Below, piece after piece: positions 19,478-59,488 of a DNA stretch of 64,000 nucleotides. How positions within the stretch are numbered: position 1 is the stretch's first letter; each line of letters opens with the position of its first letter. The position numbers and the translations under genes were made by a program. Origin of the DNA: an uncultured bacterium (GTDB lineage: Bacteria; Armatimonadota; UBA5829); assembly GCA_964494345.1 (NCBI GenBank), contig CAZBSI010000002.1, positions 113,830 to 177,829 on the forward strand. The letters run 5' to 3'. Under the pieces are notes generated by a model. It searched no databases and had not been told where the DNA came from. It worked only from the letters and a program-made list of their open reading frames with translations.

Positions 19478-19563
19478 GCCGGAGTGGCGGAATGGCAGAC
19501 GCAGTGGTCTCAAAAACCACCGAGGGCAACCTCATGTCGGTTCGACTCCGACCTCCGGCACCA
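19478..19563 (+). tRNA. tRNA-Leu (anticodon CAA), class II with long variable arm, CCA encoded
   Basis: Acceptor stem GCCGGAG/CTCCGGC, D-stem GCG/CGC, anticodon stem GTGGT/ACCAC with loop CTCAAAA, variable arm GAGGG-CAA-CCTC, T-arm GTCGG-TTCGACT-CCGAC, discriminator A, then CCA. Confidence 0.9.
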
Positions 19564-20066: not shown

Positions 20067-20798
20067 TTAAAGTAATTCAAACCAGGTAGAAGCGTCAAAA
20101 CCAATGGACGCCATAACTGACTCCAGTGTCATAGGCGGAGCCAAACGCAGGCGGAACGCCACCCGATTTGATGGCACGTCATCAATAATAGTAAACTGTG
20201 ATCCGTGCGGTTGCCACGTAAATTTATGCCTCCCCGATTTATCGTGACCTTGCAGGTTGCCGCGTTTATTCCATTGCCATTCATACAACTCCTGGTCATA
20301 GCGCACAGTTTCGGTTTCAAACATAGCGCACTCGCGTAAATCAGCTGACTTCATCAAAACTATTGTGCGGCAATGAGAAAACCGCTGTCGAACTGACGAA
20401 ACCCGTTCACGGTAGATGGACAATACCATCTGCCCAATTTCATCGGGAGGCACACTCCGAACATCACTGACGGCAAAGGAATAATCTAACGAACACCGGC
20501 CAGAAATCAGACGGACCGTTTTCGTTTCGGAAGGTATTTTCTGCTTTACGGTCTTTGCCCCCCAACAACAACATCCCAAGCGGATATCGTCCAAACCAAC
20601 GTTTGAAGGGGCCCACTCGGCGCAAATGGCATTAGCAAACATTTTCTCCCAGTCCGGGCCTTCCAAGCGAGCTTCGCCACGAGTATGGACAAGATAGATA
20701 ATCTGTTTTGCCACAGACAGGACAGTTCCTGAAGGAAACACGCCTAAAGGATATCGCGGCTTTACTTTATCGACATTTCTCAATTTTGGGTCTAGCAT
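20067..20798 (-). CDS. putative Type II restriction endonuclease (partner of adjacent C5-MTase)
   Basis: Its ATG overlaps the MTase stop (ATGCTAG, a 7-nt overlap giving translational coupling). No recognisable housekeeping motif. It has the size (243 aa) and position of an R subunit. This is inference only. Confidence 0.45.
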   Translation of the reverse strand: MLDPKLRNVDKVKPRYPLGVFPSGTVLSVAKQIIYLVHTRGEARLEGPDWEKMFANAICAEWAPSNVGLDDIRLGCCCWGAKTVKQKIPSETKTVRLISGRCSLDYSFAVSDVRSVPPDEIGQMVLSIYRERVSSVRQRFSHCRTIVLMKSADLRECAMFETETVRYDQELYEWQWNKRGNLQGHDKSGRHKFTWQPHGSQFTIIDDVPSNRVAFRLRLAPPMTLESVMASIGFDASTWFELL

Positions 20799-21784
20799 AC
20801 AAATAGACTCCGCAGGCTCGGCAAAGTTTCTACCGATGCGACAGGTTTCAATAGCTGGTCCAAAACCCTTTCAGCCACTGCTTGGATGACCGGCACGGGA
20901 ACAGCGTTGCCAACCTGCTTTCTTATTGTTCCATAGCCGCTAATAATCTTGAAAGAATCAGGAAAGCCCTGCAATCGCAACATTTCACGAGGTGTCAGCC
21001 TGCGCTCACCGTTCACCAGCAGATAGTTGTGGCTTGCACCCGCTCTCAATGCACAACTATAAGGCAAAGCGCTCACATGCCCAGACTTGTTTTCATGCCA
21101 AATGGTGGGCTTGTCTGTGGGTTCACATTGTTTCAATCTTCGTTTTCTGATATACTCAGAGGCATAATACTGCTGTGGGACCGTCGGCTCGAGAATTGTG
21201 CTGAGCGGCGCTATCGGCAGAGGAGACATCGGCCACTCAATTTGTCTGTCACTGCGGAATCCCACTATTACAATTCTCTCCCGCTTTTGTGGCAGACCAA
21301 AATCAAGTGCATTGAGTATTCTATGGGAGTGAGTATACCCGAGCATATCCAAAGTCTCAAGTATTCTACTCAATGTCCTGCCACCGTCGTGACTGGCCAA
21401 ACGTTTTACATTTTCCAAAATGAATGCCGGAGTGCGCTTAGCTTCAAGCACTCGCGCAATATCAAAGAAAAGAGTGCCTCTGGTGTCAGCAAAGCCCTTG
21501 GAGGAGCCAATGATACTAAACGGTTGACAAGGGAATCCTGCCAGCAGAATGTCATGATCAGGAATGTCACACCCATCTACTTGGGTTATATCACCTGCCG
21601 GCCGCATGTTGAAATTAGCTTCATACGCATCTTGAGCATCGGGGTCAATGTCGCTGGCAAATACACATTGTCCTCGAATACCTCGGGTCTTCAGCGCCGC
21701 ATCCATTGCGTAGTGAAATCCGCCAATACCACAAAACAGGTCAATGAACCGCACGGCCATTCGCCTCCTATTCGTATATGGCAA
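20792..21784 (-). CDS. DNA (cytosine-5)-methyltransferase
   Basis: Motif I FIDLFCGIGGF, motif IV GFPCQPFS, and ENV (FILENVKRL). Confidence 0.9.
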   Translation of the reverse strand: MPYTNRRRMAVRFIDLFCGIGGFHYAMDAALKTRGIRGQCVFASDIDPDAQDAYEANFNMRPAGDITQVDGCDIPDHDILLAGFPCQPFSIIGSSKGFADTRGTLFFDIARVLEAKRTPAFILENVKRLASHDGGRTLSRILETLDMLGYTHSHRILNALDFGLPQKRERIVIVGFRSDRQIEWPMSPLPIAPLSTILEPTVPQQYYASEYIRKRRLKQCEPTDKPTIWHENKSGHVSALPYSCALRAGASHNYLLVNGERRLTPREMLRLQGFPDSFKIISGYGTIRKQVGNAVPVPVIQAVAERVLDQLLKPVASVETLPSLRSLFVC

Positions 21785-26347: not shown

Positions 26348-28045
26348 TTACTTAAGCCCATCTATCGCTCTTCCGACATTCGCCCTGATCGCTTCTATTT
26401 TCTTGACGTCCGTGCAGAAATCAGTCAGCGATGGCACGCACTCGTTGACCTGACGCAACGCGTCGACTGCGGCGGAGTAAGCCGGGGTCTTTTTCTTAGC
26501 GTCGGAGGCGGCGTCGATTTTGTCCTGGAGTATTCGGAAGTAATCCCAGTCCTCGATGCCTTCGCGCACTAATTCCCATCTGATGGAATCCACCGGGCCT
26601 TTATCGACGAACTTCTCAGACGGCAGCCGCGACGCCGGATACAGCAGTTGGCCATCGCCATTGCCCCAGTTGTGGGTCCTCTCCGGCGGCTGGCTCATCG
26701 CAACCTGCCACGGGTTGTCCTGCCAATACATCGTATTCCAATACAGAATGCCGTTGACTCCGTATTTCCATGTCTGCCAGTGGAACATACGCATCTGTGC
26801 AGCGGGGTAGTCGATGAAATAGCCATTGGCATAAGGCGCGCGCGGCTCACAGCACAAATACCACCAAAGCTCCTCGCCTTTAGCCTGTCGCGCCTTGCTG
26901 GGCTCTTCGACATAATGATGTACTATCGGCACCCATATATCAACAGATCCTATGAGCTTGTCCTCTACGCGCTTGGTCAGAAGAATCTTAATTCGACCAT
27001 CCGCCATGCGTATGTCTTTGGCAGCTTCCACGATGCTGTCGTAGACGTCCGGCTGAGGCTCGTCTGTTATATAGACATAACCTTTCGACAGAACACCCTT
27101 GTTGATCAAATGCTCCGCTACCTGGCGCATATAATCGATTTTGAGACGCTGGCTGTCCGCGCCCTTTCCGAAACCGAGATCATCGTGCATCCACGACCTC
27201 GGCAGCATGAAGCTGTTAAAATATGGGAAATACTTCTGAATAGCCACGTCGAAGTCTTTGAAATCGACCTTAACCTCGCCGTTTTCCCTCTCGATTTTAA
27301 GATCATATCCGGCGTAAGGCTGATAAGGCGAGACTCTATGCTTGCGGAAATTGAGATTATACAAATCGACCAGCTTGCGCTGCTGTTCGATGGTGGCGGC
27401 GCCCTGGTAGTTGAACACTTTGTGCATAGTGTTGCCGTAGGCAGTGCGCAGGCGGCTCACCGACGGCAGCGTGAAGTTCCATACTCGCAGATGAACCGGC
27501 ACCGCGATCGTGCCGATACTCGGCGCGATTACGTCAATGGTTCCCTTATATTCCCCCGCAGGCGTATTTCTGGGCACATAAACCGTCACCCACGCTGAGG
27601 TATTGCGATTCTCGATCGCGTTATATGGGAAGTGATCCGGCAACGGGTCCGGATACAGCCCCGGCTCTATGCCTTCGTTGGTCGGGGTGGAGCAGTTGAC
27701 ATACTCCACATTTTTGACCGTAATGCTCCACGCCGGCACCTTTCCCCCCTTTGGGCCGGTGAGGGTGCGCGGTATAACTTTGACGTTGCCGATGCGTGAT
27801 TTTGTGGTCAGTACTATCTGAAACGGCTCATATTCGTTGTTTGCCGCATATAGCTGTACACTTTTGGCCTTATTGGCCGGCACGGGTGTGTTCGGCAAAA
27901 TCTTCTGATTAGGGCTTGCTGTCCAGGCTGTGCCCCATTTGCCCTCGGCTACTACCCCCCAAGCCGACGCGGCCTGAGACTGCGCATAGGCACAGGTTGT
28001 GGAAATCAGGAAAAACAAGATTGGAATCGACAGGATGTATCGCAT
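26348..28045 (-). CDS. secreted hypothetical protein, possibly DUF4091-type glycoside-hydrolase-like
   Basis: Signal peptide MRYILSIPILFFLISTTCAYA, with start at ATG 28045 and GGAGGTG upstream. Size ~566 aa. Only weak similarity to DUF4091-family N-terminal regions recalled. Confidence 0.45.
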   Translation of the reverse strand: MRYILSIPILFFLISTTCAYAQSQAASAWGVVAEGKWGTAWTASPNQKILPNTPVPANKAKSVQLYAANNEYEPFQIVLTTKSRIGNVKVIPRTLTGPKGGKVPAWSITVKNVEYVNCSTPTNEGIEPGLYPDPLPDHFPYNAIENRNTSAWVTVYVPRNTPAGEYKGTIDVIAPSIGTIAVPVHLRVWNFTLPSVSRLRTAYGNTMHKVFNYQGAATIEQQRKLVDLYNLNFRKHRVSPYQPYAGYDLKIERENGEVKVDFKDFDVAIQKYFPYFNSFMLPRSWMHDDLGFGKGADSQRLKIDYMRQVAEHLINKGVLSKGYVYITDEPQPDVYDSIVEAAKDIRMADGRIKILLTKRVEDKLIGSVDIWVPIVHHYVEEPSKARQAKGEELWWYLCCEPRAPYANGYFIDYPAAQMRMFHWQTWKYGVNGILYWNTMYWQDNPWQVAMSQPPERTHNWGNGDGQLLYPASRLPSEKFVDKGPVDSIRWELVREGIEDWDYFRILQDKIDAASDAKKKTPAYSAAVDALRQVNECVPSLTDFCTDVKKIEAIRANVGRAIDGLK

Positions 28046-28272
28046 ATAAACACCTCCGATGACGAATCGCATCCGCGTAAGCATTATATCATTCTTTCTC
28101 ACAATCGTGACTGATTGATGGGCTATGAGGGTATAATGCAATCGGCAGACGATTTTGAGACGTGAAATGATGTGCCGTATCTTGCGTCTAATATAATAGC
28201 GACCAGGCAATTGTCGCGAATGTTGGTTGCGACCGGCCAGCGCTGAGGTTAAACAGGAGGAGGGCTTTTACA

Positions 28273-29037
28273 ATGAGAGAATTGCGTTTGCGACCGCTGT
28301 GTTATGTGATAATGGCTGCAGTGCTGACGATCTCGATCGGATTGCCGATCCTGGCGGCTGATGCCGCGCAGACTAATGTGAACCTTGACCTGAAAGATAC
28401 TGATGTCAAGGCGGCCATAGAGGCCCTTTTTCGAGGCACGGGAAGGAACTACTCCATAGATTCCAATGTCTCGGGCATCGTTTCGGCGCTGTCTATTAAG
28501 GATGTTCCGTTCGAAACTGCGCTCAGGAGTCTTACGAAATCGGCCGGGTTGGTATATCGACAGGACGGCGGAGTATATCTTATCAGCGTTAAGCCAGATA
28601 CCTCAAATCTCGTCGCTGCGTCTATGCCGATATCAGAACTGCCGTCGGTGGATGCTACTACCGATGAGCCTGAGATTAAAATAGAAAAGATTCCGCTGAA
28701 TAACGTCAGCGCCAACGAGATATTGTCGATTCTCGGCGGTACGGATTCCAATAGAGCCTACGGCGGCTACGGTATGGGCGGCTGGAATTATGGCATGGGA
28801 ATGGGCGGTCGTTATGGCGGCTCTGGCGGATACGGTAGTTACGGCGGCAATTACGGTGGCAACTATGGCGGTTATGGTAACTACGGCAGCTACGGAAACC
28901 GCAGCTATGGCGGCAACTTTGGTGGTTATGGCAGCAACTACGGCGGTTATGGCAGCAACTATGGCGGCTACAACAACCGTTCGTCAGGTTACGGTGGGTC
29001 TTACGGTGGATCTTATGGCGGCTACCGAGGTTGGTAG
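28273..29037 (+). CDS. secreted protein with secretin-N/STN-like domain and C-terminal Gly/Tyr-rich low-complexity tail
   Basis: N-terminal signal/anchor. Residues ~35-105 (NVNLDLKDTDVKAAIEALF...GLVYRQDGGVYLI) resemble the secretin/TonB short N-terminal domain. The C-terminal ~95 aa is almost pure G/Y/S/N (GGYGSYGGNYGGNYGGYGNYGSYG...). Confidence 0.55.
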   Translation: MRELRLRPLCYVIMAAVLTISIGLPILAADAAQTNVNLDLKDTDVKAAIEALFRGTGRNYSIDSNVSGIVSALSIKDVPFETALRSLTKSAGLVYRQDGGVYLISVKPDTSNLVAASMPISELPSVDATTDEPEIKIEKIPLNNVSANEILSILGGTDSNRAYGGYGMGGWNYGMGMGGRYGGSGGYGSYGGNYGGNYGGYGNYGSYGNRSYGGNFGGYGSNYGGYGSNYGGYNNRSSGYGGSYGGSYGGYRGW

Positions 29038-29046
29038 ATGAGTTTG

Positions 29047-29087
29047 TGGTGGTCGGATAATACCGGCCACCATTGTTTTGTGTGTCC
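29047..29087 (+). terminator. Rho-independent terminator
   Basis: GGTGGTCGG-ataatac-CCGGCCACC hairpin (9 bp with one G-U pair) followed by ATTGTTTTGTGTGT. Confidence 0.7.
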
Positions 29088-29144
29088 TTAGCATCCGCGT
29101 TTTCTCTTCTTTAATTTCTAACCTTTAAATCTTCGCTCCTCTGC

Positions 29145-29172
29145 TTGCAGCTTCTACTAGCGCTGCTATAAT
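29145..29172 (+). promoter_or_regulatory. sigma70-like promoter upstream of C39-like peptidase gene
   Basis: TTGCAG (29145-29150), 16-nt spacer, TATAAT (29167-29172). Confidence 0.55.
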
Positions 29173-29274
29173 GAAATTCAAAGTGGCACATTTTGTGCAT
29201 CCAGACAGTTAGGTCAACTCGTCGTTTCCCTTGCGGCCACAAAACACTAAATCCATCGCAAACGGAGTAACAAG

Positions 29275-30021
29275 TTGCGCTTTTATCGGACACTACGCAC
29301 ATCTACCCTCATAGTGCTGAGCCTCGCCCTGCTTTCGCCAATTATCAGCGGACAGGGTTTATCAAGTTTCAAAATCGAGGGAGTTCCGCGAATCAAACAA
29401 ATGCAGAATTATTGCGGCCCAGCCACAATGTCCTCGATATTTTGTTATCTGGGAGAAAATATCACCCAGGAAGAGATCGGCAAGACGATATATGATCCCG
29501 TCGGTGGGGCGACCCACGGCGCCGATATGCTCTATTATGCCAAAAACAAAGGCTACTGCGCCTATTCATTCAACTCCGGCATAGCTGACGCCAAACGCAA
29601 GCTGGTATCAGGCACGCCGCTGCTTGTTTTGCAACAAAACAGCAATCGCGACCATTCCGGGCACTTCCGAGTGCTCACCGGCTACGACGATGCAGCCGAA
29701 AAGTTCTACGTAACCGACCCCTACTACGACGATATCACAGAGATGACTTATGCGCAGTGTGAAAAGTTGTGGAAGCCGATGGGGTATTGGGCGATGATTA
29801 TTGTGCCGGCGGATAAAGATGACTTCAAAACCGAGCTCGGTGCAAAAAATCCGGTCTTTCACATGGACCTTTCCTATGCTCTATATAAGCACGGGCAATA
29901 TACGGACGCGCTGAAGGAGATCAATGCCGCGCTATCTCTGGAGCCGTCCAACAAATATGCATTGTCGATGCTCTCCAAGATAAACGGGGCCATCGGAGCC
30001 GGCAAAAAGAGCAAATCCTGA
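29275..30021 (+). CDS. secreted C39-like cysteine peptidase domain protein with C-terminal TPR-like region
   Basis: Signal peptide. QNYCGPATMSSIF (catalytic Cys) and SGHFRVLTGYD (His) are characteristic of Peptidase_C39-like domains. TTG start. Confidence 0.6.
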   Translation: MRFYRTLRTSTLIVLSLALLSPIISGQGLSSFKIEGVPRIKQMQNYCGPATMSSIFCYLGENITQEEIGKTIYDPVGGATHGADMLYYAKNKGYCAYSFNSGIADAKRKLVSGTPLLVLQQNSNRDHSGHFRVLTGYDDAAEKFYVTDPYYDDITEMTYAQCEKLWKPMGYWAMIIVPADKDDFKTELGAKNPVFHMDLSYALYKHGQYTDALKEINAALSLEPSNKYALSMLSKINGAIGAGKKSKS

Positions 30022-30023
30022 GC

Positions 30024-32150
30024 CTACCGCACTTTAGAAGCCTGGGCCGTCGCTTTGGCGGCCTCGGCTTTGTTTCCGGCCGCAGAATAGGCGGCGCTCA
30101 GACCCGTGTAGCAGCCCTTGAACAGTTGCAGCATATCCTCGGCGTCGCTTTTGGTGACTAGTCCGATTCTTCTCTGCACTTCCCGCATATCCCCGGATGA
30201 TCTCCATCGCTCCAGTCGATTGATTGCTGCGCGATACTCCCGAATTGCGGCGCTGTAGTAGCGTCGTGCGAGGTATTTGTCGGCGAAGTGGGCGTGAGCA
30301 AAGGCGTAGGTGCCGTCGACGATCTCCGGAGTCCCTTTGATATTCTCATAATCTGAGCTTTCAATTGCCATCAACCGTCGCAACACGGACTCGAAGTTTT
30401 CGGTGTCATCGGTGTCTCTGTAAATTAGAGCGAGTTTATATAGAGTGCGCGTTGAGTTAGGGTGATATTTCAGAGCCTGTTTGAAACTCGATATAGCCAA
30501 CGGCAGGTCGTGGTGATTCTCCGCAATCACACCTTTCGCAAACCACCCGCCTTCAGAGGTGCGCCGAGCCAGTTTAATCGCCATATCCGCCTGCTCATAC
30601 GCAGCATCGTCGGAAATAGCCTGTGTCGAAAGCCAGGTGGCCAATTGCCGCCGATAGGTGGGCATCAGAGGAGATGCAGAGACGGCTTTTTTATAGAGGT
30701 CGATGATCCGCAGAGCATTGTCGGGGTTCCTCGCGTATACGGCCTCGGCTTTAGTCGCGTAGAAATCACCCAGGCCAAATGAAACCGTCATAGCCATCAA
30801 CACAACGCACGCAGCGCCTGCGACTGCGCGGCCAACAGGGGCTAACTTCACCTTTTTATCAGCCGCACCGGATCGTGAGACCAATACCCCCGCCACCACC
30901 CAAAACGGTATCGCTATTCCAGAGACATACCAATCTGAATCGACCAGGCTTCTTATCGCCGAGCCGAACAGAGCCGCAAACAGGGCGCAATCCAGCAGCC
31001 TCCAGCCGCTGTACGGCAAAATATCCGTCCACGTGACCGACCCGAATGCACATTCGTCGGCTGCTTCTTTGACAGGCTCTGATCGCCTGCCGACGCTATG
31101 AATAGTCCCCAGAACGGCGGAGCGGGCTATGGCCAGCAGCAACAACATAAAAGCAGCAGCAGCCGGTATTCCGCACTCAGCCGCGAGCTGCAAATATGAG
31201 TCGTGCGCCATTCGCGTCGGGCCAGCTATGGTGTACTGTTGATAAGTCACAGGATAAGTCCCCGGCCCCGTGCCGAGCCAGGGCTGCGCCCGAATCATGT
31301 CCAAAGTCGCCTGCCAGGTGTAGGCTCGAAACACAGTTGAATGAACCTGTGTGCCGCCGGACTCCGCAGCCTGTATCCTGGATTTAACCGGGGCTGAAAA
31401 GAAAACCAGCAGTGGGGTCAATACCGCACACAGCACAAGCAATCTAAGAAATCGGGATCGTCGCAACGCCTTTGTAACGATGGCCAGCAAAAAGAACAAC
31501 CCAAGCGACATCACCGCGGCGATAATACCGAACTTGGCCCCAGTCAACATCAGCGCCAGCGTCTGCACCACAAAAGCAAAGCCCGCCAGCAATACTAACA
31601 GGCTGCGCCGTGTCACCAGAAAGATTCCCAACGTCACCGGAAGCGTAATGACCAGATAGCCTGCAAAGAAGCTGGGGTTCAAAAAAGGCCCAAACAGCCT
31701 GCCGTGTTCACCGCGCCCCATCAGAGACTGCCAGAAGTGTATGCCCCCGCCGGTGTCCAGAGCGTAGTCTCTGACCCCCATCGCGCTGATAATCAAGGCC
31801 GAAAGCAGCAAAACCCAGACGGTCGCTGTCGCCATTTTCCGGTCCTCGCTCAATGAAGAAGCCAGAAGATAAACGCCCAAACAAGCCGCGAAGAATACCA
31901 TTTGATTCAGGCTGAAGAAAATAGCGCGGCTGAAACAAGTGGAGATAATATAAAACAGAAGAAAAGCAGCAGCAAACCACAGCCCCGGCACCCGTTGCCA
32001 GGTTCCGGATTTGTCTTTTGTCAGCAACAGGCGACAACAGACCCCGCCCAGGATAATCAGGTACAAAAACCCGTTAGTGAGCGTGCCAAGTTTGCCACCG
32101 ATTACCGGAGCAAGCACAATCGCTAATAAAAGCAGCACGGAGCCTTCCAC
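30024..32150 (-). CDS. O-antigen ligase (Wzy_C) family membrane protein with C-terminal TPR domain
   Basis: ~10 TM helices. Central Wzy_C-like region (MAHDSYLQLAAECGIPAAAAFMLLL). C-terminal ~250 aa TPR-like repeats. Located immediately downstream of the minor pilin genes. Confidence 0.7.
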   Translation of the reverse strand: MEGSVLLLLAIVLAPVIGGKLGTLTNGFLYLIILGGVCCRLLLTKDKSGTWQRVPGLWFAAAFLLFYIISTCFSRAIFFSLNQMVFFAACLGVYLLASSLSEDRKMATATVWVLLLSALIISAMGVRDYALDTGGGIHFWQSLMGRGEHGRLFGPFLNPSFFAGYLVITLPVTLGIFLVTRRSLLVLLAGFAFVVQTLALMLTGAKFGIIAAVMSLGLFFLLAIVTKALRRSRFLRLLVLCAVLTPLLVFFSAPVKSRIQAAESGGTQVHSTVFRAYTWQATLDMIRAQPWLGTGPGTYPVTYQQYTIAGPTRMAHDSYLQLAAECGIPAAAAFMLLLLAIARSAVLGTIHSVGRRSEPVKEAADECAFGSVTWTDILPYSGWRLLDCALFAALFGSAIRSLVDSDWYVSGIAIPFWVVAGVLVSRSGAADKKVKLAPVGRAVAGAACVVLMAMTVSFGLGDFYATKAEAVYARNPDNALRIIDLYKKAVSASPLMPTYRRQLATWLSTQAISDDAAYEQADMAIKLARRTSEGGWFAKGVIAENHHDLPLAISSFKQALKYHPNSTRTLYKLALIYRDTDDTENFESVLRRLMAIESSDYENIKGTPEIVDGTYAFAHAHFADKYLARRYYSAAIREYRAAINRLERWRSSGDMREVQRRIGLVTKSDAEDMLQLFKGCYTGLSAAYSAAGNKAEAAKATAQASKVR

Positions 32151-32242
32151 CAGCCACCATCCCTGCTATCGTTGCATTGGATAAACGATACGCCGGAAGC
32201 GCCACCGTGTCAAGCGAGTGTCCGAACGATAGGAGTTATACC

Positions 32243-33841
32243 TTAGTCCGTCAGCACCTTCCATGAGAGCCTGTCGTATTGCCCGGTGGTCGGATAAAAC
32301 GGCGGCGGAGCTACGGCTAACCTGGGGTCGTAGTTGTAGTCTTTGGCATAACCGGTTTTGATCGTGCCTCCGCTTATGGTTCCGACCGCGCCACGGGTGC
32401 TTTGGATCAGCCCTCCGATAACCTTTAGAGCGCCCGTATTGCCCTGATTATAGTTGTTTACGGAGATGCTGCCGTTAACGCTGCTGCTGCCGGCCAGCAA
32501 AACAGCGTCAATTTCACGGTCGGGGTGGTTATGCTTTAAGGTCCCGTCATCTGCGATATAGATATCCTGCGCAACAAGGCCGAGCGTACCGGCAGCCAGG
32601 TTAGTCTCGTGAGTAGATGGCAGTTGCTTATTTGGACGGGTTTTATAGACCAGATCATTCGTAATGGTGATATTCTTTTTGGCCACGGTATCGGTGGCTA
32701 TCGTCCAAGCTGAGCGACGGGTGATTTTACCGGCGGAATATGAATTATCCGCGATTGTGCCGCTAAGCGATGTTATGTCACCGGTGCAGTAGATTACCCC
32801 GTTTGAAAACGAGTTGGCCGAGGTCGGACTGCCCTGACCCATCGCCGTTCCAGACGCTGTTGTGGTCCCACTCGATTTGTTAAATATGACCGTTGCAGAT
32901 TTTTGATACGCACCGGTGCCCTGGGTTATAGTAGCTACTTGATTCCCGCTTGCATCGACCGACATCGTTATCGCTGCGTCGCCTCGTATATATATCCCAC
33001 CCGTATCGGCGCCATCGACTTTGTTGGCTTTTAAATAGACTCCGTCGGTAGTCGGAAAGCCGGTGTCGCTGCCCCAGGCCGCCTTTTTTTGGTCTTCGGT
33101 GGACGGCGGCAGGTTGATTTTTTGAATGCCGAGCAGATATCCCCTGCTTCCGTTGAGAAATACCTTCTGGTAATCGGTCTCGTTGGCGGGCCTGCGTGGG
33201 TTATAGTTGATCGTAGTGCCGGACGCCGTGACCTGATCCAAAAATATCGGCCTTCGGGTGCTCGACCACCCGCCGTAGTCTATATTGAAGTTAGTGCCTC
33301 CGGTGTTGTTGCTGTGAACAGGCCCATCGACCCTGTCGTTGGAAGCCCACCAAATCACGCTGCCGGAGGTTGAGGTTTCGCGATCTGTAAAATACGCATA
33401 TTTGCCGAAAGTGGACTGTCTGACCACAACTTGCACACGCCTGGTATGGCCGGACACGGTGCCGGTGGATATTATCTCATATTTCTTTAAAAACACCCTG
33501 CCATTATCCGGGTCGCAGATTATATTTACCGTCCACGCGCCGGCAGGGGACGCGCCGATTTGAGCGGTTATGTTTTGATCCGAAGTCGGCGGCAGGGCCT
33601 GATCGCGCAGCCAAAGCACCCCTCTCTCCGCCCCGGATTCCGCCACCTGCAAAGCCGATGATCTAAGCTGCTGGCGGTTGTTAGAGCGAATGGCGGCGCT
33701 GGTCATACCCAAAAGGATCACCGACAAGCCGATTATCACAAATGCAGCTCCGGCCACCGCTAAAAGCAGCGAGCCTCGCTTATTACGAGCAAGCGTCATA
33801 TTCGATATTGGTGATTTATATTTGTTTACAACCGGAGGCAT
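32243..33841 (-). CDS. large PilX-like type IV pilus minor pilin/tip-associated protein
   Basis: N-terminal hydrophobic helix after KRG (MTLARNKRGSLLLAVAGAAFVIIGLSVILL), then a Thr/Ser/Gly-rich beta-rich region. Start ATG 33841 with AAGGTG RBS overlapping the upstream stop. Confidence 0.5.
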   Translation of the reverse strand: MPPVVNKYKSPISNMTLARNKRGSLLLAVAGAAFVIIGLSVILLGMTSAAIRSNNRQQLRSSALQVAESGAERGVLWLRDQALPPTSDQNITAQIGASPAGAWTVNIICDPDNGRVFLKKYEIISTGTVSGHTRRVQVVVRQSTFGKYAYFTDRETSTSGSVIWWASNDRVDGPVHSNNTGGTNFNIDYGGWSSTRRPIFLDQVTASGTTINYNPRRPANETDYQKVFLNGSRGYLLGIQKINLPPSTEDQKKAAWGSDTGFPTTDGVYLKANKVDGADTGGIYIRGDAAITMSVDASGNQVATITQGTGAYQKSATVIFNKSSGTTTASGTAMGQGSPTSANSFSNGVIYCTGDITSLSGTIADNSYSAGKITRRSAWTIATDTVAKKNITITNDLVYKTRPNKQLPSTHETNLAAGTLGLVAQDIYIADDGTLKHNHPDREIDAVLLAGSSSVNGSISVNNYNQGNTGALKVIGGLIQSTRGAVGTISGGTIKTGYAKDYNYDPRLAVAPPPFYPTTGQYDRLSWKVLTD

Positions 33842-33850
33842 ACCGACACC

Positions 33851-34450
33851 TTAATGATTATAATAGTTGCGCATATAGATGACGCGCTGGGTCAGGGTGG
33901 TCTCTTTTTTGCCGGAATCGCTTGCTTTATATTTCAACACCGATTCGCGAGTGGTGATCGTAATCTGGACAGCATCAGCCCCCAGTTCCGAATTGACCTC
34001 GAATAGCAGCGAGGAGACGTCTTTTCTAATGGGCAGCAGTTTGCCCTTCCAACTCCACCACAACCATGTCCCATTTTTGCCGACTATCCCGGATTGGTCC
34101 GACGTGTAGAAATACATCGGATTCTGGGTATCCGATTCGGTGCGGTCGTAATGACCGTCCACGGTTTCAGGCAAGATCACGCACAATCTGCGTCCGCTAT
34201 ATGGGCCGCTGTCGTAGATTGTGATCTTTTGGGCCTCTCGCACCCACAGCACCATAAACTGCAGCGCCGAAGAGGCGTTGGTGTCGCTGCTGACCTGCGC
34301 CAGATCATCGTCCACTGCACGCATCGCAGCGATAAGCATGCTCACCGTGCAAACCAGCAGCAGAGCCATTATTCCTGTCGCCGCCAGCACCTCAATTACG
34401 GTGAACCCTCGGCGATTCAAAACACGTTTTTGGGTGATGTTAACTCGCAT
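33851..34450 (-). CDS. prepilin-type N-terminal cleavage/methylation domain pseudopilin (PilW-like)
   Basis: Leader MRVNITQKRVLNRRG|FTVIEVLAA. The G-F-T-x-x-E prepilin signature is present. Start chosen at ATG 34450 rather than the ORF-track 34486. Confidence 0.7.
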   Translation of the reverse strand: MRVNITQKRVLNRRGFTVIEVLAATGIMALLLVCTVSMLIAAMRAVDDDLAQVSSDTNASSALQFMVLWVREAQKITIYDSGPYSGRRLCVILPETVDGHYDRTESDTQNPMYFYTSDQSGIVGKNGTWLWWSWKGKLLPIRKDVSSLLFEVNSELGADAVQITITTRESVLKYKASDSGKKETTLTQRVIYMRNYYNH

Positions 34451-34934
34451 TGGATATATAGGCAACCTGTTCAACTTTGCTGTCACCGGCCCGCCTGGGC
34501 GATGAACGCCAGGTGATGGTGACGGTGATCTTCTTCATTCTCGTGTCTGTGGGGTGATTCTCAATTTTCAGGGTTGCTGTCGGCGGCTGGCCGACGCTCG
34601 CGCCAGGCAGATAATCCGCAACCCCATCCACACTGACGAAACTGTAGGGAGATGAGGTCGGCGAGCTATCGATAAAGCCTCCCTCTTGCAGTTCGGAATA
34701 GGTCAAACGGCCCCATTCGATAGCCCTGAGCTGGTCGATTTTGTGCTGCGCCAGGCTAATGGCCTGCGCATACTCTCCGTTGATCTTGGCTGCGGATTTG
34801 CCGACTATTAACGATGACGAAAAAACGACCACCAATAGCGAAAACACGAAAAGCGATATCATCACTTCCATCAAAGTGAGGCCGCTTTTAAGCCGCCGGC
34901 GCCCAATTAAAATGCTCGGTCTGGTCTTGTCCAT
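34440..34934 (-). CDS. prepilin-type pseudopilin (PilV/GspI-like)
   Basis: KSG|LTLMEVMISLFVF prepilin cleavage/methylation motif. RBS GGGAGTGA. Confidence 0.7.
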   Translation of the reverse strand: MDKTRPSILIGRRRLKSGLTLMEVMISLFVFSLLVVVFSSSLIVGKSAAKINGEYAQAISLAQHKIDQLRAIEWGRLTYSELQEGGFIDSSPTSSPYSFVSVDGVADYLPGASVGQPPTATLKIENHPTDTRMKKITVTITWRSSPRRAGDSKVEQVAYISNAS

Positions 34935-57499: not shown

Positions 57500-59488
57500 T
57501 TGAGCCACACGCATTTCGATGCTGCAGAAGAAAAGCGCACTTCGGTAAAATCAAGTGCAAAAAAACCGCCGTCGGGTTTGCGATTGCGCGCGTTCATCAT
57601 CGGCCTGCTGATCATCCCGTTCGATAACTACTGGGTTGTCATCACCGAAAAAGTCTACAGGGGCCCATATCCCACCATTATCTCCCTGTTTGCCAACTGC
57701 GTCTTCATATTGGCGATACTGGTGGTGATAAACGGGGTTTTAGAAAAGATACGACGGTCGTGGGCTTTTAATCCCGGCGAATTGCTGTTGATTTACACGA
57801 TGGTCGTGGTGGGGGCGTCGCTGGCAGGCCACGATATGATCCCGTGCGTGTGCATGTTTATCGGCTATCCCTGGCAATTCGCCACAGTCGACAACAACTG
57901 GGCGAACACGTTTATACCGTATCTGCCAAAGATGCTGAGCGTAACTGACCTTAAGATTTTGAAGCCATTTTATGAAGGACACTCCAGTCTTTATGCTGAT
58001 GGACACTGGAAATATTGGCTGAGGCCGGTGGGGTTGTGGTCGGCGTTTACGGTGGTGTTGTTTTATGTGATGATGTGCATAAACACACTGGTTCGAAAGC
58101 AATGGACCGACCGTGAGCGTCTCACGTTCCCTATAGTCCAGCTTCCAGTGGCTATGACCGATCCCAAGACAAACCTCTGGCGCAATCGTCTGTTCTGGGT
58201 AGGCTTTGCCATCGCGTTTGGAATAGATCTCATTAACGGATTGGCCGTATATTATCCTGCTATCCCTGCCATCAATCTTACGATTACCGGCCACAACCTG
58301 CGCCAGTTTATGACCGCCAAGCCGTGGGATGGTATCGATTGGATGCCGTGGTCGATGTATCCGTTTGTGGTCGGGTTGGGGTATTTGCTGCCTGCTGACC
58401 TCAGCTTCTCTTGCTGGTTCTTCTACCTGATGTGGAAGGCGCAGATGGTAATTACCCGGGCTATGGCCTGGGATGCGGTGCCGAACTTTCCGTTTATACG
58501 TCACCAGGCCTTTGGGGGCTATGTGGGCATTATTCTTATGCTCTCTTGGAGCGGCAAGGGGTATCTCAAACAGGTGTGGCTGCGCATTATAGGCGCCGAT
58601 TCCGAACTCGACGACTCCGATGAGCCGATGTCTTACAGATCGGCGGCTGCAGGTGCGGCGATTGGGTTTTTGCTGTTGTGCCTGTTTATGAGGTGGATCG
58701 GGTTGTCTCCTTTGCTGTGTGTGATAGGGTTTTTGATATATTTCCTCCTCGCCACCGCCATCTCACGTATGCGCGCGGAGCTTGGGCCGCCGGTGCATGA
58801 CCTGCACTTCTCCGGCCCGGATTATATGATTAGCTCCAGCGGAGGGCTTGGGAATCTTAGCCGGGGCGATTTGGTCGGCCTGACCTACTTCTACTGGTTT
58901 AATCGTGCATATCGCGGCCACCCTATGCCGGTGGGAATTGAGGGCATGAAGATGGCCCAGGTGACGAGATCGAGCCAGCGGGCGTATATGAAAGGCATGA
59001 TGCTCGCCGCTTTGGTCGGCACAATTACGGCGTTCTGGGCGTTTTTACATTTGGGTTATCATTTCGGGACGGCGGCAAAGTTCCATCAGGGTTATGGATT
59101 TGCATGGGAGGCGTTCGGCACTCTGGACAGTTGGTGGAAGCATCCGGGTATGATGGAAAGGCCGAATTGGGGAGCAAACTTCGCAATGGTGGGCGGCTTT
59201 TTGTTTTGCGTTTTGCTCAGCTACGCTCGAACACAGATATTCAACTTCCCGTTCCACCCGATTGGCTACGCGATATCCGGCAGTTGGTCGATGAACCTGG
59301 TCTGGCTGCCGATTCTGGTGGCCTGGCTGCTGAAGGTTCTGACGCTGAAATTCGGCGGGCTCAGACTATATAAAACCGCGGTTCCGTTTTTCTTCGGGCT
59401 GATTTTAGGGGAGATGATGATCGGGTGCTTATGGAGCCTTATCGGGCTAGCATTCGACATTCCATACTTCAGCTTCTGGGGAGCTTAG
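57500..59488 (+). CDS. large polytopic membrane protein of unknown function (~14 predicted TM helices)
   Basis: 662 aa, aromatic-rich hydrophobic segments throughout. TTG start with GAGGA 7 nt upstream. Located 78 nt downstream of nikR on the same strand. Confidence 0.5.
   Translation: MSHTHFDAAEEKRTSVKSSAKKPPSGLRLRAFIIGLLIIPFDNYWVVITEKVYRGPYPTIISLFANCVFILAILVVINGVLEKIRRSWAFNPGELLLIYTMVVVGASLAGHDMIPCVCMFIGYPWQFATVDNNWANTFIPYLPKMLSVTDLKILKPFYEGHSSLYADGHWKYWLRPVGLWSAFTVVLFYVMMCINTLVRKQWTDRERLTFPIVQLPVAMTDPKTNLWRNRLFWVGFAIAFGIDLINGLAVYYPAIPAINLTITGHNLRQFMTAKPWDGIDWMPWSMYPFVVGLGYLLPADLSFSCWFFYLMWKAQMVITRAMAWDAVPNFPFIRHQAFGGYVGIILMLSWSGKGYLKQVWLRIIGADSELDDSDEPMSYRSAAAGAAIGFLLLCLFMRWIGLSPLLCVIGFLIYFLLATAISRMRAELGPPVHDLHFSGPDYMISSSGGLGNLSRGDLVGLTYFYWFNRAYRGHPMPVGIEGMKMAQVTRSSQRAYMKGMMLAALVGTITAFWAFLHLGYHFGTAAKFHQGYGFAWEAFGTLDSWWKHPGMMERPNWGANFAMVGGFLFCVLLSYARTQIFNFPFHPIGYAISGSWSMNLVWLPILVAWLLKVLTLKFGGLRLYKTAVPFFFGLILGEMMIGCLWSLIGLAFDIPYFSFWGA

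What the first reader, a model, noticed from the sequence alone, without database searches (positions are those of the whole stretch)
28273..29037. Secreted secretin-N-like domain protein with a prion-like Gly/Tyr-rich tail
A ~75-aa domain resembling the short secretin/TonB N-terminal (STN/secretin-N) fold is followed by ~95 residues of nearly pure G/Y/S/N repeats: GGYGSYGGNYGGNYGGYGNYGSYGNRSYGGNFGGYGSNYGGYGSNYGGY.

This composition is like eukaryotic FUS/hnRNP low-complexity domains and structural silk or cuticle proteins. It is unusual for a bacterial periplasmic or surface protein. The gene has its own promoter (-10 TATAAT at 28132-28137) and its own terminator, and it lies next to a pilus/glycosylation cluster. 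It could form a hydrogel or amyloid-like matrix, or act as a plug or adapter at a secretin pore.
Basis: partly seen in the sequence, partly recalled or inferred. Interest (0 to 1): 0.55.

Follow-up and report, generated by a model that had tools for sequence, protein, structure and literature searches.

The report
Stand-alone secretin N0 protein, glycine-tyrosine tail
This gene encodes an exported protein with the first domain of a pilus outer-membrane pore (secretin) fused to a floppy glycine/tyrosine-rich tail; it belongs to an undescribed family found across the Armatimonadota, where a copy sits just upstream of the pilus pore gene in every locus examined.

Summary
ORF 28273-29037 (+) encodes a 254-aa protein with five parts:
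- a Sec signal peptide;
- a secretin N0/STN domain (Pfam STN above cutoff; AF2 pLDDT about 90; best fold match is the PilQ N0 domain);
- a linker;
- a conserved strand-helix element that matches the start of a secretin N1 domain;
- a 94-aa disordered tail (44% G, 22% Y, no D/E/K) ending Y-R-G-W.

The tail is not junk. About 60 homologues keep a 63-107-aa acid-free Gly-rich tail, and almost all G/Y-type members end R-x-W. Aromatic residues are far more evenly spaced than in shuffled sequence.

The family is confined to Armatimonadota and Abditibacteriota. Its ancestral position is pilM-N-O-P-[this gene]-pilQ-aroK-aroB. All 41 PilQ-centred metagenome loci with enough upstream DNA carry it. The window copy is a relocated paralogue. 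It has its own conserved -10 box and terminator, and lies between a GH123 gene and a C39-like peptidase-TPR gene, about 5 kb from pseudopilin genes.

My best reading is a periplasmic accessory subunit of a secretin complex, analogous to BfpG/TcpQ, with a cohesive or flexible tail. The gel or plug idea remains untested. I rate it a new variant of a known kind.

The parts
28129..28140 (+). Conserved -10-like promoter block GGGTATAATGCA (TATAAT at 28132-28137)
   Evidence: Invariant in the window, L001, L002 and L003 while the flanks diverge. No consensus -35 was found by the sigma-70 scan.
28255..28264 (+). Shine-Dalgarno-like AGGAGGAGGG, 9-12 nt before the ATG
   Evidence: Read. The block CAGGnGGAGGGCTTT is conserved in four lineages.
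28273..29037 (+). Complete CDS, 254 aa plus stop: stand-alone secretin-N0 protein with a Gly/Tyr tail
   Evidence: The identical protein occurs on 16 contigs.
28273..28365 (+). Sec-type signal peptide (about aa 1-31; A-D-A|A cleavage site judged by eye)
   Evidence: The n/h/c-region pattern is conserved in the alignment. AF2 predicts a helix at 7-22. No signal-peptide predictor was available.
28375..28593 (+). Secretin N0 / STN domain (aa 35-107)
   Evidence: Pfam STN scores 44.4 bits. pLDDT is 88-94. Foldseek finds PilQ, LspD and GspD N0 domains.
28594..28671 (+). Variable Pro/Ser/Thr/Ala linker (aa 108-133)
   Evidence: Poorly conserved and length-variable in A1. pLDDT is 41-58.
28672..28740 (+). 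Conserved strand-helix element EIKIEKIPLNNVSANEILSILGG (aa 134-156), equivalent to beta1-alpha1 of a secretin N1 domain
   Evidence: E134, I137, E138, K139, L142, A147, E149, L151 and L154 are (nearly) invariant. The element is collinear with PilQ 'KQYAVVKLIHSRPSEILRLIG'. The PilQ and GspD NCBIfam models align through aa 154-160. AF2 predicts a helix at 147-154.
28753..29034 (+). Disordered Gly/Tyr/Ser/Asn tail (aa 161-254), acid-free, with evenly spaced aromatics
29023..29034 (+). Conserved C-terminal Y-R-G-W (R252 invariant, W254 in at least 90% of sequences)
29046..29083 (+). Intrinsic terminator: 11-bp stem (7 G-C pairs) followed by TGTTTTGTGT
   Evidence: The stem is kept by compensatory changes in L001.
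26348..28045 (-). Context: divergently transcribed GH123 glycoside hydrolase (565-aa gene call), the most conserved neighbour of the non-pilQ paralogues
   Evidence: Pfam GH123_cat and GH123 N-terminal domains. Gene call of 565 aa. Synteny in L001-L006, L016, L019 and L020.
29275..30021 (+). Context: exported C39-like cysteine peptidase with a C-terminal TPR and its own conserved promoter-like block; a recurrent downstream neighbour
   Evidence: Peptidase_C39_2 scores 64 bits and TPR_2 is detected. The PA2778-family C39 model scores 80 bits, below its cutoff. Synteny in L001-L003, L005, L006, L015 and L019. An invariant upstream block is present.

Best explanation
The gene encodes a periplasmic accessory subunit of a secretin (type IV pilus / pseudopilus outer-membrane pore) complex. 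I describe it as a 'mini-secretin': it keeps only the secretin's N-terminal docking end and adds a disordered tail.

**Proposed mechanism.**
1. Sec export and signal-peptide cleavage release the protein into the periplasm.
2. Its N0 domain and the beta1-alpha1 element copy the N-terminus of a secretin. They should therefore dock where secretin N0/N1 domains dock: onto the PilP-type lipoprotein of the inner-membrane alignment complex, onto the N-domain rings of the secretin, or both. This is how the stand-alone N0-fold proteins BfpG and TcpQ bind type IVb secretins.
3. The 90-residue tail stays unfolded. It is acid-free, mildly cationic and Gly-rich, with aromatics every 3-5 residues. Many copies around a 12-15-mer ring would give a dense, self-cohesive and elastic fringe. 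That fringe could tether or space the machine in the periplasm or peptidoglycan.
4. The conserved R-x-W end could plug into a partner, for example a TPR protein.

**Shown versus inferred.**
- Shown: the fold, the paralogy to secretin N-termini, family-wide conservation of the tail, and obligate linkage of the family to pilQ.
- Inferred: physical binding, stoichiometry, and what the tail does.

The window copy is a relocated paralogue. It may serve the same PilQ, or the nearby pseudopilin / Wzy-like / GH123 / C39-peptidase genes.
For: **Fold and paralogy.**
- STN scores above the Pfam cutoff.
- PilQ, HofQ and GspD models match only their N-terminal ~120 positions.
- The AF2 N0 domain has pLDDT ~90, and its best PDB matches are PilQ, LspD, GspD and XcpQ N0 domains.
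- The protein aligns collinearly with the N-terminus of Armatimonadota PilQ through signal peptide, N0, linker and beta1-alpha1.
- It is 48-50% identical to the first STN domain of secretin-like proteins that carry the same G/Y...R-x-W tail.

**Linkage to pilQ.**
- 24 of 42 genome loci have the order pilM...pilP-like lipoprotein-[STN-Gly tail]-pilQ-aroK-aroB.
- Sampling by PilQ instead gives the same result: 41 of 41 metagenome loci with enough upstream DNA carry the small STN / Gly-tail ORF directly upstream. Forty met the automatic criteria and L083 was confirmed by eye.
- In L018 the gene overlaps pilQ by 7 nt.
- Four genomes that hold a window-type copy also hold a pilQ-linked copy.

**Selection on the tail.**
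- Tail length is 63-107 aa, D+E averages 0.6%, K is near zero, and nearly all G/Y members end R-x-W.
- Aromatic spacing is uniform in 25 of 33 members at p <= 0.01 by shuffling.
- Synonymous changes exceed non-synonymous ones against L001.
- The identical protein is found on 16 contigs.

**Precedents in the literature.**
- BfpG and TcpQ are stand-alone N0-fold partners that bind their secretin 17:17 and are essential. The RcpA C-terminal pentapeptide docks into the TPR pilotin TadD (PMC12531336).
- Thermus PilW is a Gly/Pro-rich flexible periplasmic connector (PMC13039148).

**Gly-rich segments elsewhere in the machine.**
- PilQ in this phylum carries a low-complexity insert at the equivalent point, just after beta1-alpha1.
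- The PilN-, PilO- and PilP-like proteins end in Gly-rich tails.
Against: - No interaction was tested.
- The window copy is not in the pilus operon. Its most conserved neighbours are a GH123 hydrolase and a C39-like peptidase, so its role may have diverged from the pilQ-linked paralogue.
- AF2 does not pack the beta1-alpha1 element against anything (pLDDT 54-64).
- Half an N1 domain has no known independent function.
- The closest relatives of its N0 domain are secretin-like proteins in ECF sigma / anti-sigma operons, not PilQ. An envelope-signalling link cannot be excluded.
- The tree separating the paralogue types is an unsupported NJ tree.
- Only one copy was detected in the genome closest to the window (L001). 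Whether that organism also has a pilQ-linked copy is unknown.
Confidence: 0.55

Rival explanations
1. Competitive regulator or decoy. As a secretin N-terminus without a pore, the protein would titrate the PilP-type lipoprotein or cap secretin N-domain rings. This would limit or time pilus-machine assembly rather than build it. The window paralogue would be a separately regulated copy.
For: - It has the same docking domains as PilQ but no secretin domain.
- The window copy has its own promoter-like box and terminator, so it can be expressed independently of pilQ.
- Half an N1 domain could act as a dominant-negative strand-helix.
Against: - The pilQ-linked copies are co-operonic, sometimes overlap pilQ, and are present in 41 of 41 loci. 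This pattern fits a stoichiometric structural partner better than an inhibitor.
- A decoy would not need a conserved 90-aa tail with a conserved C-terminus.
Confidence: 0.12
2. Free structural, adhesive or matrix protein. The G/Y tail would self-assemble into a gel, amyloid or dityrosine-cross-linked material in the periplasm, cell wall or extracellular matrix. The N0 domain would be only a solubilising or carrier module.
For: - Tail composition and uniform aromatic patterning resemble phase-separating prion-like domains, tick-cement and plant Gly-rich proteins (PMC11794139 listed).
- The window copy lies among glycan-related genes: GH123, Wzy_C, and NTP-transferase/DegT.
Against: - In sister lineages the tail is G/F or purely G/R with no aromatics, yet the N0 domain, the beta1-alpha1 element and pilQ linkage are constant. 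The constant part is therefore the secretin-like end.
- The N0 and beta1-alpha1 parts are the most conserved parts of the protein.
- AF2 predicts no ordered assembly.
- There is no evidence of export beyond the periplasm.
Confidence: 0.12
3. Periplasmic nucleic-acid-binding factor for DNA uptake. The acid-free Arg/Gly/aromatic tail is RGG/GAR-like, especially in the G/F and G/R lineages. It would bind incoming DNA at the base of the PilQ channel during natural transformation.
For: - The tails are cationic and lack D and E.
- The G/R and GGGGF/R variants resemble RGG boxes.
- PilQ and HofQ periplasmic domains have been reported to bind DNA (title and abstract of PMC2884949; otherwise my own knowledge).
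Against: - Arg is only 1-6% of most tails, and about 1-2% in the G/F clade.
- No comEA or comEC genes were seen in the operons examined.
- No test was possible with these tools.
Confidence: 0.06
4. Substrate or precursor of the neighbouring C39-like cysteine peptidase. The peptidase would cut at Gly-Gly and release a Gly-rich peptide, bacteriocin- or signal-like, or trim the tail.
For: - The C39_2 peptidase-TPR gene lies directly downstream in L001-L003, L005, L006, L015 and L019.
- By eye, a Cys47 / His130 / Asp148 motif is present in the peptidase.
- 'LNNVSANEILSILGG' superficially fits the double-glycine leader consensus (my own knowledge).
Against: - The GG after the helix is not conserved, even in the closest relatives that have the peptidase neighbour: ILSILNNSD in P0003 and LSMLNGAD in P0004.
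- The protein has a Sec signal peptide, not an N-terminal GG leader.
- No ABC exporter is adjacent.
- The two genes are separate transcription units.
- pilQ-linked paralogues lack this neighbour.
Confidence: 0.05
5. Decaying remnant: a truncated secretin pseudogene whose 3' end drifted into low-complexity sequence.
For: Only the superficial resemblance to a secretin cut after N0 and half of N1 supports this.
Against: - The architecture is conserved phylum-wide, with conserved length and C-terminus.
- Synonymous changes exceed non-synonymous ones in both the domain and the tail.
- The RBS, -10 box and terminator are conserved.
- An intact PilQ lies next to the paralogues.
Confidence: 0.01

Closest known systems
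N-terminal region (N0 + start of N1) of type IVa pilus secretins PilQ/HofQ and T2SS GspD
   Same: - Same N0/STN fold, with significant sequence similarity.
- Same order: signal peptide, N0, linker, beta1-alpha1.
- In Armatimonadota PilQ, a low-complexity Gly-rich segment follows at the same point.
   Different: - It lacks the rest of N1 and the secretin pore domain.
- It is a 25-kDa soluble periplasmic protein that ends in a Gly/aromatic tail with R-x-W.
BfpG / TcpQ, stand-alone N0-fold partners of type IVb pilus secretins (PMC12531336)
   Same: - Small, non-lipoprotein periplasmic proteins with an N0-like fold.
- Encoded with a pilus secretin.
- The structural match 9u5s_R appears in the fold search (E 5.4e-3, TMt 0.63).
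- This is the most likely functional analogy: a 1:1 secretin-binding ring.
   Different: - BfpG has no detectable sequence identity to secretin N0 domains and no low-complexity tail. It binds a lipoprotein-secretin LG domain that PilQ lacks.
- The present family is a clear sequence paralogue of secretin N-termini, belongs to a type IVa-like pilMNOPQ operon, and carries beta1-alpha1 plus a 90-aa tail.
- Binding is untested here.
Thermus PilW / PilP / GspC periplasmic connectors
   Same: - Encoded just upstream of pilQ.
- Rich in Gly (and Pro) with flexible regions proposed to span a wide periplasm and link the secretin to PilMNO (PMC13039148).
   Different: - Those proteins use an HR (PilP/GspC-type) domain and are membrane-anchored.
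- Armatimonadota have a separate PilP-like lipoprotein (weak pilP_fam hit).
- This family has an N0 domain and a cleaved signal peptide.
Prion-like / FUS-hnRNPA low-complexity domains and FG-nucleoporin repeats
   Same: - Gly/Ser/Asn/Tyr (or Gly/Phe) composition with almost no charge.
- Aromatic 'stickers' evenly spaced and never adjacent.
- Predicted disorder.
   Different: - The protein is bacterial and extracytoplasmic.
- It is much more Gly-rich, has no Gln/Pro, and is only ~90 aa.
- Sister lineages replace the aromatics by Arg.
- Phase behaviour is untested. The similarity is compositional, not homology.
Secretin-like proteins with 2-4 STN domains, N1, a reduced secretin domain and the same G/Y...R-x-W tail (P0047, P0050, P0089, P0091, P0103, P0118, P0126, P0179)
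   Same: - Closest N0 sequence relatives, at 48-50% identity.
- Same tail and C-terminal motif.
- Homologous to PilQ (hhalign probability 99%).
   Different: - They are 450-700 aa and keep N1 and a pore-like domain.
- They are encoded after an ECF sigma factor and an anti-sigma factor.
- They are themselves uncharacterised.

Membership tests
STN / secretin N0 domain (Pfam PF07660, PF21305) | Sequence match above the curated cutoff | tested here: met
   STN scores 44.4 bits against a cutoff of 28.4. type_II_gspD_N0 scores 18.4 bits, below its cutoff of 27.
STN / secretin N0 domain (Pfam PF07660, PF21305) | N0 fold | tested here: met
   The AF2 model has pLDDT ~90 over aa 35-107. Foldseek finds 4ar0 (PilQ N0, E 2.8e-7) and 4jtm (GspD N0, TMt 0.71, rmsd 2.7).
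Secretin family (PilQ/GspD/HofQ) | C-terminal secretin pore domain (PF00263) | tested here: not met
   There is no Secretin hit even at E <= 10. The NCBIfam PilQ, GspD and HofQ models match only model positions ~1-122, far below their cutoffs. The protein ends at aa 254.
Secretin family (PilQ/GspD/HofQ) | Complete N1 (Secretin_N, beta-alpha-beta-beta-alpha) domain | tested here: not met
   Only beta1-alpha1 is present (aa 134-156), followed by the low-complexity tail. There is no Secretin_N hit.
BfpG/TcpQ-type stand-alone N0 secretin partners | Small periplasmic protein with an N0-like fold and no pore domain | tested here: met
   (9u5s_R among the matches).
BfpG/TcpQ-type stand-alone N0 secretin partners | Encoded with its secretin | tested here: inconclusive
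   Met for the family: 24 of 42 genome loci and 41 of 41 PilQ-centred loci. Not met for the window copy, because there is no secretin in the 64-kb window.
BfpG/TcpQ-type stand-alone N0 secretin partners | Stoichiometric binding to the secretin, and requirement for its assembly | not testable with these tools
   This needs multimer modelling, pull-down, cryo-EM and genetics.
Prion-like / phase-separating low-complexity domain | Low-complexity polar/Gly composition, few charges, evenly patterned aromatic residues, predicted disorder | tested here: met
   G+Y+S+N make up 87% of the tail with no D/E/K. Spacing variance is 1.95 against 9.8 in shuffles (0 of 5000 reached it). pLDDT is ~30.
Prion-like / phase-separating low-complexity domain | Actual condensation, gelation or amyloid formation | not testable with these tools
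   This requires in-vitro assays.
TonB-dependent transducer / FecR-type cell-surface signalling proteins (the other STN-bearing families) | STN domain joined to a plug and 22-strand barrel, or to a FecR anti-sigma module | tested here: not met
   No such Pfam domains are found. The best fold and model matches are secretin N0 domains rather than PupA, FpvA or anti-sigma domains, which rank lower.
Double-glycine-leader peptides (C39 peptidase substrates) | N-terminal leader ending in a conserved GG cleaved by a C39 domain of an ABC exporter | tested here: not met
   The protein has a Sec signal peptide instead. The internal 'ILGG' is not conserved in close homologues. The neighbouring C39-like protein has no ABC transporter domain.

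The most novel reading that the evidence does not exclude
The Gly/aromatic tails, together with the Gly-rich insert of PilQ and the Gly-rich tails of PilN, PilO and PilP, form a cohesive gel-like phase. It would resemble the FG-nucleoporin or FUS type of phase and be anchored around or inside the periplasmic vestibule of the pilus secretin. Many tails per ring would be held in place by the N0 domain and the R-x-W end. Such a phase would be an ATP-independent, extracytoplasmic condensate. It could act as a selective seal or elastic sleeve for the moving pilus or incoming DNA. That would make it a bacterial counterpart of the nuclear-pore permeability barrier.
Probability: 0.1. Interest if true: 0.88.

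Novelty: new variant of a known kind. Interest (0 to 1): 0.6.

Why it matters
Secretin machines are well studied in Proteobacteria, but almost nothing is known about them in Armatimonadota.

- **A new obligate gene.** This work defines a sixth gene in that phylum's pilMNOPQ operon. It is a secretin N-terminus without a pore, and it is present in every PilQ locus examined.
- **Pervasive Gly-rich segments.** Low-complexity Gly-rich segments occur in the periplasmic parts of the machine: the PilN, PilO and PilP tails, the PilQ insert, and this protein's tail.
- **A possible extracytoplasmic example.** If the tails are cohesive, this would be a rare, genetically tractable case of a sticker-spacer low-complexity domain working outside the cytoplasm, with no ATP or chaperones, and tied to a defined nanomachine.
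- **Natural variants.** The G/Y, G/F and G/R tail versions offer a ready-made test of the sticker model.
- **Annotation.** Members are currently labelled 'hypothetical' or mislabelled 'HofQ/GspD'.

Tried and rejected
1. **Double-glycine leader / C39 substrate.** 'LNNVSANEILSILGG' fits the GG-leader pattern by eye. The GG is absent in the nearest homologues that keep the peptidase neighbour, so I rejected this as a conserved site.
2. **OMP beta-signal.** The C-terminal W suggested a BAM signal. The motif is Y(-3)-R(-2)-x(-1)-W, which does not alternate hydrophobic residues, and the tail is not strand-like. I did not pursue it.
3. **Lipoprotein.** The conserved 'LC' at aa 9-10 precedes the hydrophobic core, so it is not a lipobox.
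4. **pilQ or pilMNOP in the window.** tblastn with Armatimonadota T4P proteins found only the finding itself. Pfam annotation of the other large ORFs found no pilus motor or secretin genes.
5. **Other G/aromatic low-complexity ORFs.** I scanned ~700 kb of related DNA in all six frames. Only this family has them.
6. **Rfam and tRNA scans.** Nothing lies near the gene; the only hit is tRNA-Leu at 19478.
7. **Literature searches.** Searches combined secretin, Armatimonadetes, glycine-rich, low-complexity and tyrosine-rich, and also Chthonomonas, Fimbriimonas and PilQ. None found a description of this family.
8. **Sigma-70 consensus scan.** It did not report the TATAAT because no -35 lies at 16-18 nt. 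Phylogenetic footprinting supported the box instead.
9. **A pilQ-linked copy in the window's own genome.** I could not determine this.
Full report
**1.

The ORF 28273-29037 (+) encodes 254 aa. It starts at an ATG preceded by AGGAGG. The quoted G/Y peptide is present.

The N-terminal domain:
- Pfam finds the STN domain above its curated cutoff (44.4 bits against 28.4), plus a weaker GspD-N0 match.
- The NCBIfam PilQ, HofQ and GspD models align only their first ~120 positions to residues ~21-160.
- AlphaFold2, run with a 34-sequence family alignment, gives a confident N0 domain at aa 35-107 (pLDDT 88-94). It also gives a short helix at 147-154 and a completely unconfident tail at aa 157-254 (pLDDT ~30).
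- Foldseek against the PDB ranks PilQ N0 (4ar0), LspD N0, GspD N0 (4jtm, TMt 0.71) and XcpQ N0-N1 first. TonB-dependent signalling domains and anti-sigma STN domains rank lower.

The tail (aa 161-254):
- Composition is 43.6% G, 22.3% Y, 10.6% N, 10.6% S and 5.3% R, with no D, E or K.
- At the DNA level it contains only short repeats of 12 and 21 nt, 2-3 copies each. It is therefore not a recent tandem expansion.

**2. The tail is conserved**

- A search with the N-terminal 171 aa found 35 homologues. Apart from one 106-aa fragment they are 219-299 aa, and every full-length one carries a Gly/aromatic tail. Nearly all end Y-R-x-W. R252 is invariant and W254 is present in at least 90%.
- Across 57 family members the tail is 63-107 aa (mean 90). 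G is 29-69% and D+E averages 0.6%. K is 0-1% and R is 1-10%.
- Aromatic residues are much more evenly spaced than chance. In the window protein the spacing variance is 1.95 against 9.8, and 0 of 5000 shuffles reached it. There are no adjacent aromatics, against 5.9 expected. Of 33 members, 25 reach p <= 0.01.
- The identical 254-aa protein is on 16 contigs read; the three places shown come from three different sequencing runs.
- Against the 93%-identical L001 orthologue, the tail has 33 synonymous and 14 non-synonymous codon differences. The domain part has 41 and 12. All indels are in frame.
- In ~700 kb of related DNA, no other ORF in any frame has such a segment.

**3. Taxonomy and genomic context**

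All 42 genome loci are Armatimonadota or Abditibacteriota MAGs, including Fimbriimonadaceae and Chthonomonas. The closest is JBMNES010000001.1 at 93% identity. Two contexts exist.

*Type B (24 loci).* The order is: a ~1900-aa protein, pilM, two membrane proteins in the pilN and pilO positions, a PilP-like lipoprotein, [this family], the pilQ secretin, aroK, aroB, and a PASTA kinase.
- The PilP-like lipoprotein has an LAGC lipobox and a weak pilP_fam hit.
- The Pfam assignments are, and independent gene calls are.
- This is the classic pilMNOPQ-aroKB arrangement with one extra gene.
- In L018 the extra gene overlaps pilQ by 7 nt.

To remove ascertainment bias I also sampled by PilQ. Of 78 metagenome loci, 41 had enough upstream DNA. 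All 41 carry a small STN ORF with a Gly-rich tail directly upstream of pilQ. Forty met the automatic criteria and L083 was confirmed by eye.

*Type A (the window, L001-L006, and partly L015, L016, L019, L020).* The order is:
- GH123 hydrolase, divergently transcribed;
- [this gene];
- an exported C39-like cysteine peptidase with a TPR;
- on the opposite strand, a Wzy_C-TPR protein, a 532-aa protein with a weak DUF4900 hit, and two N-methyl pseudopilins.

The 64-kb window has no pilQ, pilMNOP or pilus ATPase genes.

An unsupported NJ tree places the window-type copies as a derived clade inside the G/Y group. Four genomes hold both a window-type copy and a pilQ-linked copy. The window gene is therefore most likely a relocated paralogue.

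**4. Origin**

- The protein is collinear with the N-terminus of the adjacent PilQ: signal peptide, N0, linker, then the strand-helix 'KQYAVVKLIHSRPSEILRLIG'. Identity is 23-28%.
- In PilQ a low-complexity insert follows at exactly that point. The insert is Gly-rich in the G/F clade and P/G/T/Y-rich in the G/Y clade. The rest of N1 and the secretin domain come after it.
- A profile search of 1.84 billion representatives found closer relatives (4896 hits at E <= 1e-3; 96 at E <= 1e-30). These are proteins of 450-700 aa with 2-4 STN domains, a complete N1 and a reduced secretin-like domain. They carry the same G/Y tail ending R-x-W or R-x-F.
- Those larger proteins are secretin homologues (hhalign against PilQ: probability 99%, E 3.5e-18).
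- Their first STN domain is 48-50% identical to the window protein.
- The small protein thus looks like such a secretin-like protein with everything between beta1-alpha1 and the tail removed. The tail with its R-x-W end is a portable C-terminal module of STN proteins in this lineage.

**5. Expression signals**

- GGGTATAATGCA (28129-28140) is invariant in four lineages whose flanks have diverged. The RBS block is also conserved.
- The consensus scan found no -35 for this box.
- The hairpin 29046-29073 plus T-run is a good intrinsic terminator. In L001 it keeps its pairing through two compensatory changes.
- The downstream peptidase gene has its own invariant upstream block.

**6. How it most likely works**

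*Shown:* the protein is exported, has a secretin N0 fold plus half an N1 domain, carries a selected disordered tail, and belongs to a family obligately linked to pilQ.

*From established knowledge:* secretin N0 domains dock onto PilP/GspC HR domains and stack into periplasmic rings.

*Published precedents:*
- BfpG and TcpQ are stand-alone N0-fold proteins that bind type IVb secretins 17:17 and are required for assembly. The C-terminal pentapeptide of RcpA docks into the TPR pilotin TadD (PMC12531336).
- Thermus PilW, encoded just upstream of pilQ, is a Gly/Pro-rich flexible connector spanning a wide periplasm (PMC13039148).

*Inferred:* the protein is an accessory ring or adapter subunit of a secretin complex. 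Its tail provides a flexible, self-cohesive, weakly cationic fringe, and the R-x-W end may be a docking peptide.

Supporting a machine-wide theme, the PilN-, PilO- and PilP-like proteins of these operons also end in Gly-rich low-complexity tails.

The tail comes in three flavours: G/Y (ending R-x-W), G/F (ending FGR) and G/R with no aromatics. Gly-richness and the absence of acidic residues are the constant features. Tyrosine is not.

**7. Rivals**

- *Decoy or regulator.* This is plausible but fits poorly with universal co-operonic linkage and with the conserved tail.
- *Free matrix or adhesive protein.* This is not excluded for the window paralogue, which sits among glycan genes. But the conserved core of the family is the secretin-like end.
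- *RGG-like DNA binding in transformation.* This is possible, but Arg content is low.
- *C39 substrate.* The candidate GG site is not conserved.
- *Pseudogene.* This is refuted by the conservation data.

**8. Comparison with known families, and novelty**

- The protein is a member of the STN/N0 domain family.
- It is not a secretin, because it has no pore domain and only half an N1 domain.
- It works most like a BfpG/TcpQ-type partner. It differs in being a true sequence paralogue of secretin N-termini, in belonging to a type IVa-like operon, and in carrying beta1-alpha1 plus a low-complexity tail.
- Database sources call members 'hypothetical' or 'HofQ/GspD'.
- No paper describing the family was found.
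- I rate it a new variant of a known kind.

Interest is moderate to high. The genomic evidence for a secretin link is strong. An extracytoplasmic sticker-spacer domain attached to a defined machine would be unusual. Its function, and especially any gel or plug behaviour, remains inference.

Noticed in passing
Loci L011-L042 (e.g. L033 4998-5684; L036 7550-9917; L025): In the Armatimonadota pilMNOP-X-Q operons, the PilN-like, PilO-like and PilP-like proteins all end in Gly/Pro/Ala-rich low-complexity tails. PilQ itself carries a 60-80-aa low-complexity insert inside its N1 domain. Gly-rich disorder seems to be a general trait of this phylum's periplasmic pilus parts.
   Followed up: partly
P0047, P0050, P0089, P0091, P0103, P0118, P0126, P0179; loci L047 (238-5770), L048, L049: These are secretin-like proteins with 2-4 STN domains, N1, a reduced secretin domain and the same G/Y...R-x-W tail. 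They are encoded right after an ECF sigma factor and a zf-HC2 anti-sigma protein; L047 is followed by a 906-aa TPR/NTPase-like protein. This may be a secretin-like cell-surface signalling module.
   Followed up: partly
P0045, P0046, P0049, P0056, P0062 and many others: A large set of proteins consists of 3-7 tandem STN/N0 domains with no pore domain and no Gly tail, for example P0045 (637 aa, 6 repeats). Their function and taxonomy are unknown.
   Followed up: no
L106, L108, L110-L112, L114, L121, L124, L125 (ORFs directly upstream of pilQ): In the most divergent PilQ lineages, the upstream STN protein has a tail of pure Gly/Arg repeats (…GGGGGRGGGR) with no aromatic residues. This is a third tail flavour beside G/Y and G/F.
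   Followed up: partly
window 29141-29199 (+), upstream of the C39-like peptidase gene: An invariant block is shared by four lineages: CTGCTTGCA…GCTGCTATAATG…AGTGGCACATTTTGTGCA. It contains TATAAT at 29167-29172. It also contains TGGCAC-N5-GTGCA at 29184-29199, which resembles a sigma-54 -24/-12 element or a 4-bp inverted-repeat operator.
   Followed up: no
window 29275-30021 (+): This is an exported papain-like C39_2 / PA2778-family peptidase with one C-terminal TPR. By eye it has a Cys47 / His130 / Asp148 motif. It is a conserved neighbour of the window-type paralogue, and its substrate is unknown.
   Followed up: partly
window 30024-34934 (-): The cluster comprises a Wzy_C (O-antigen-ligase-like) protein with TPRs, a 532-aa protein with a weak DUF4900 hit, and two N-methyl pseudopilins. 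One pseudopilin is weakly similar to the hormogonium polysaccharide pseudopilin HpsC. This may be a pseudopilus / glycan-export or pilin-glycosylation module.
   Followed up: partly
window 20067-21784 (-): A C-5 cytosine DNA methyltransferase (330 aa) overlaps by 7 nt a 243-aa ORF with no Pfam match. This could be a restriction-modification pair.
   Followed up: no
window 57500-59488 (+); L047 5839-7779 (-): A DUF6785+DUF6784 protein occurs in the window. The same domain family also lies next to the sigma-linked secretin-like gene in L047. This is probably just a lineage marker.
   Followed up: no
window 26348-28210 (-): The mechanical ORF for GH123 (620 aa, TTG start) is probably too long. 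Independent gene calls give 565 aa, which leaves a 227-nt divergent intergenic region shared with the finding.
   Followed up: yes
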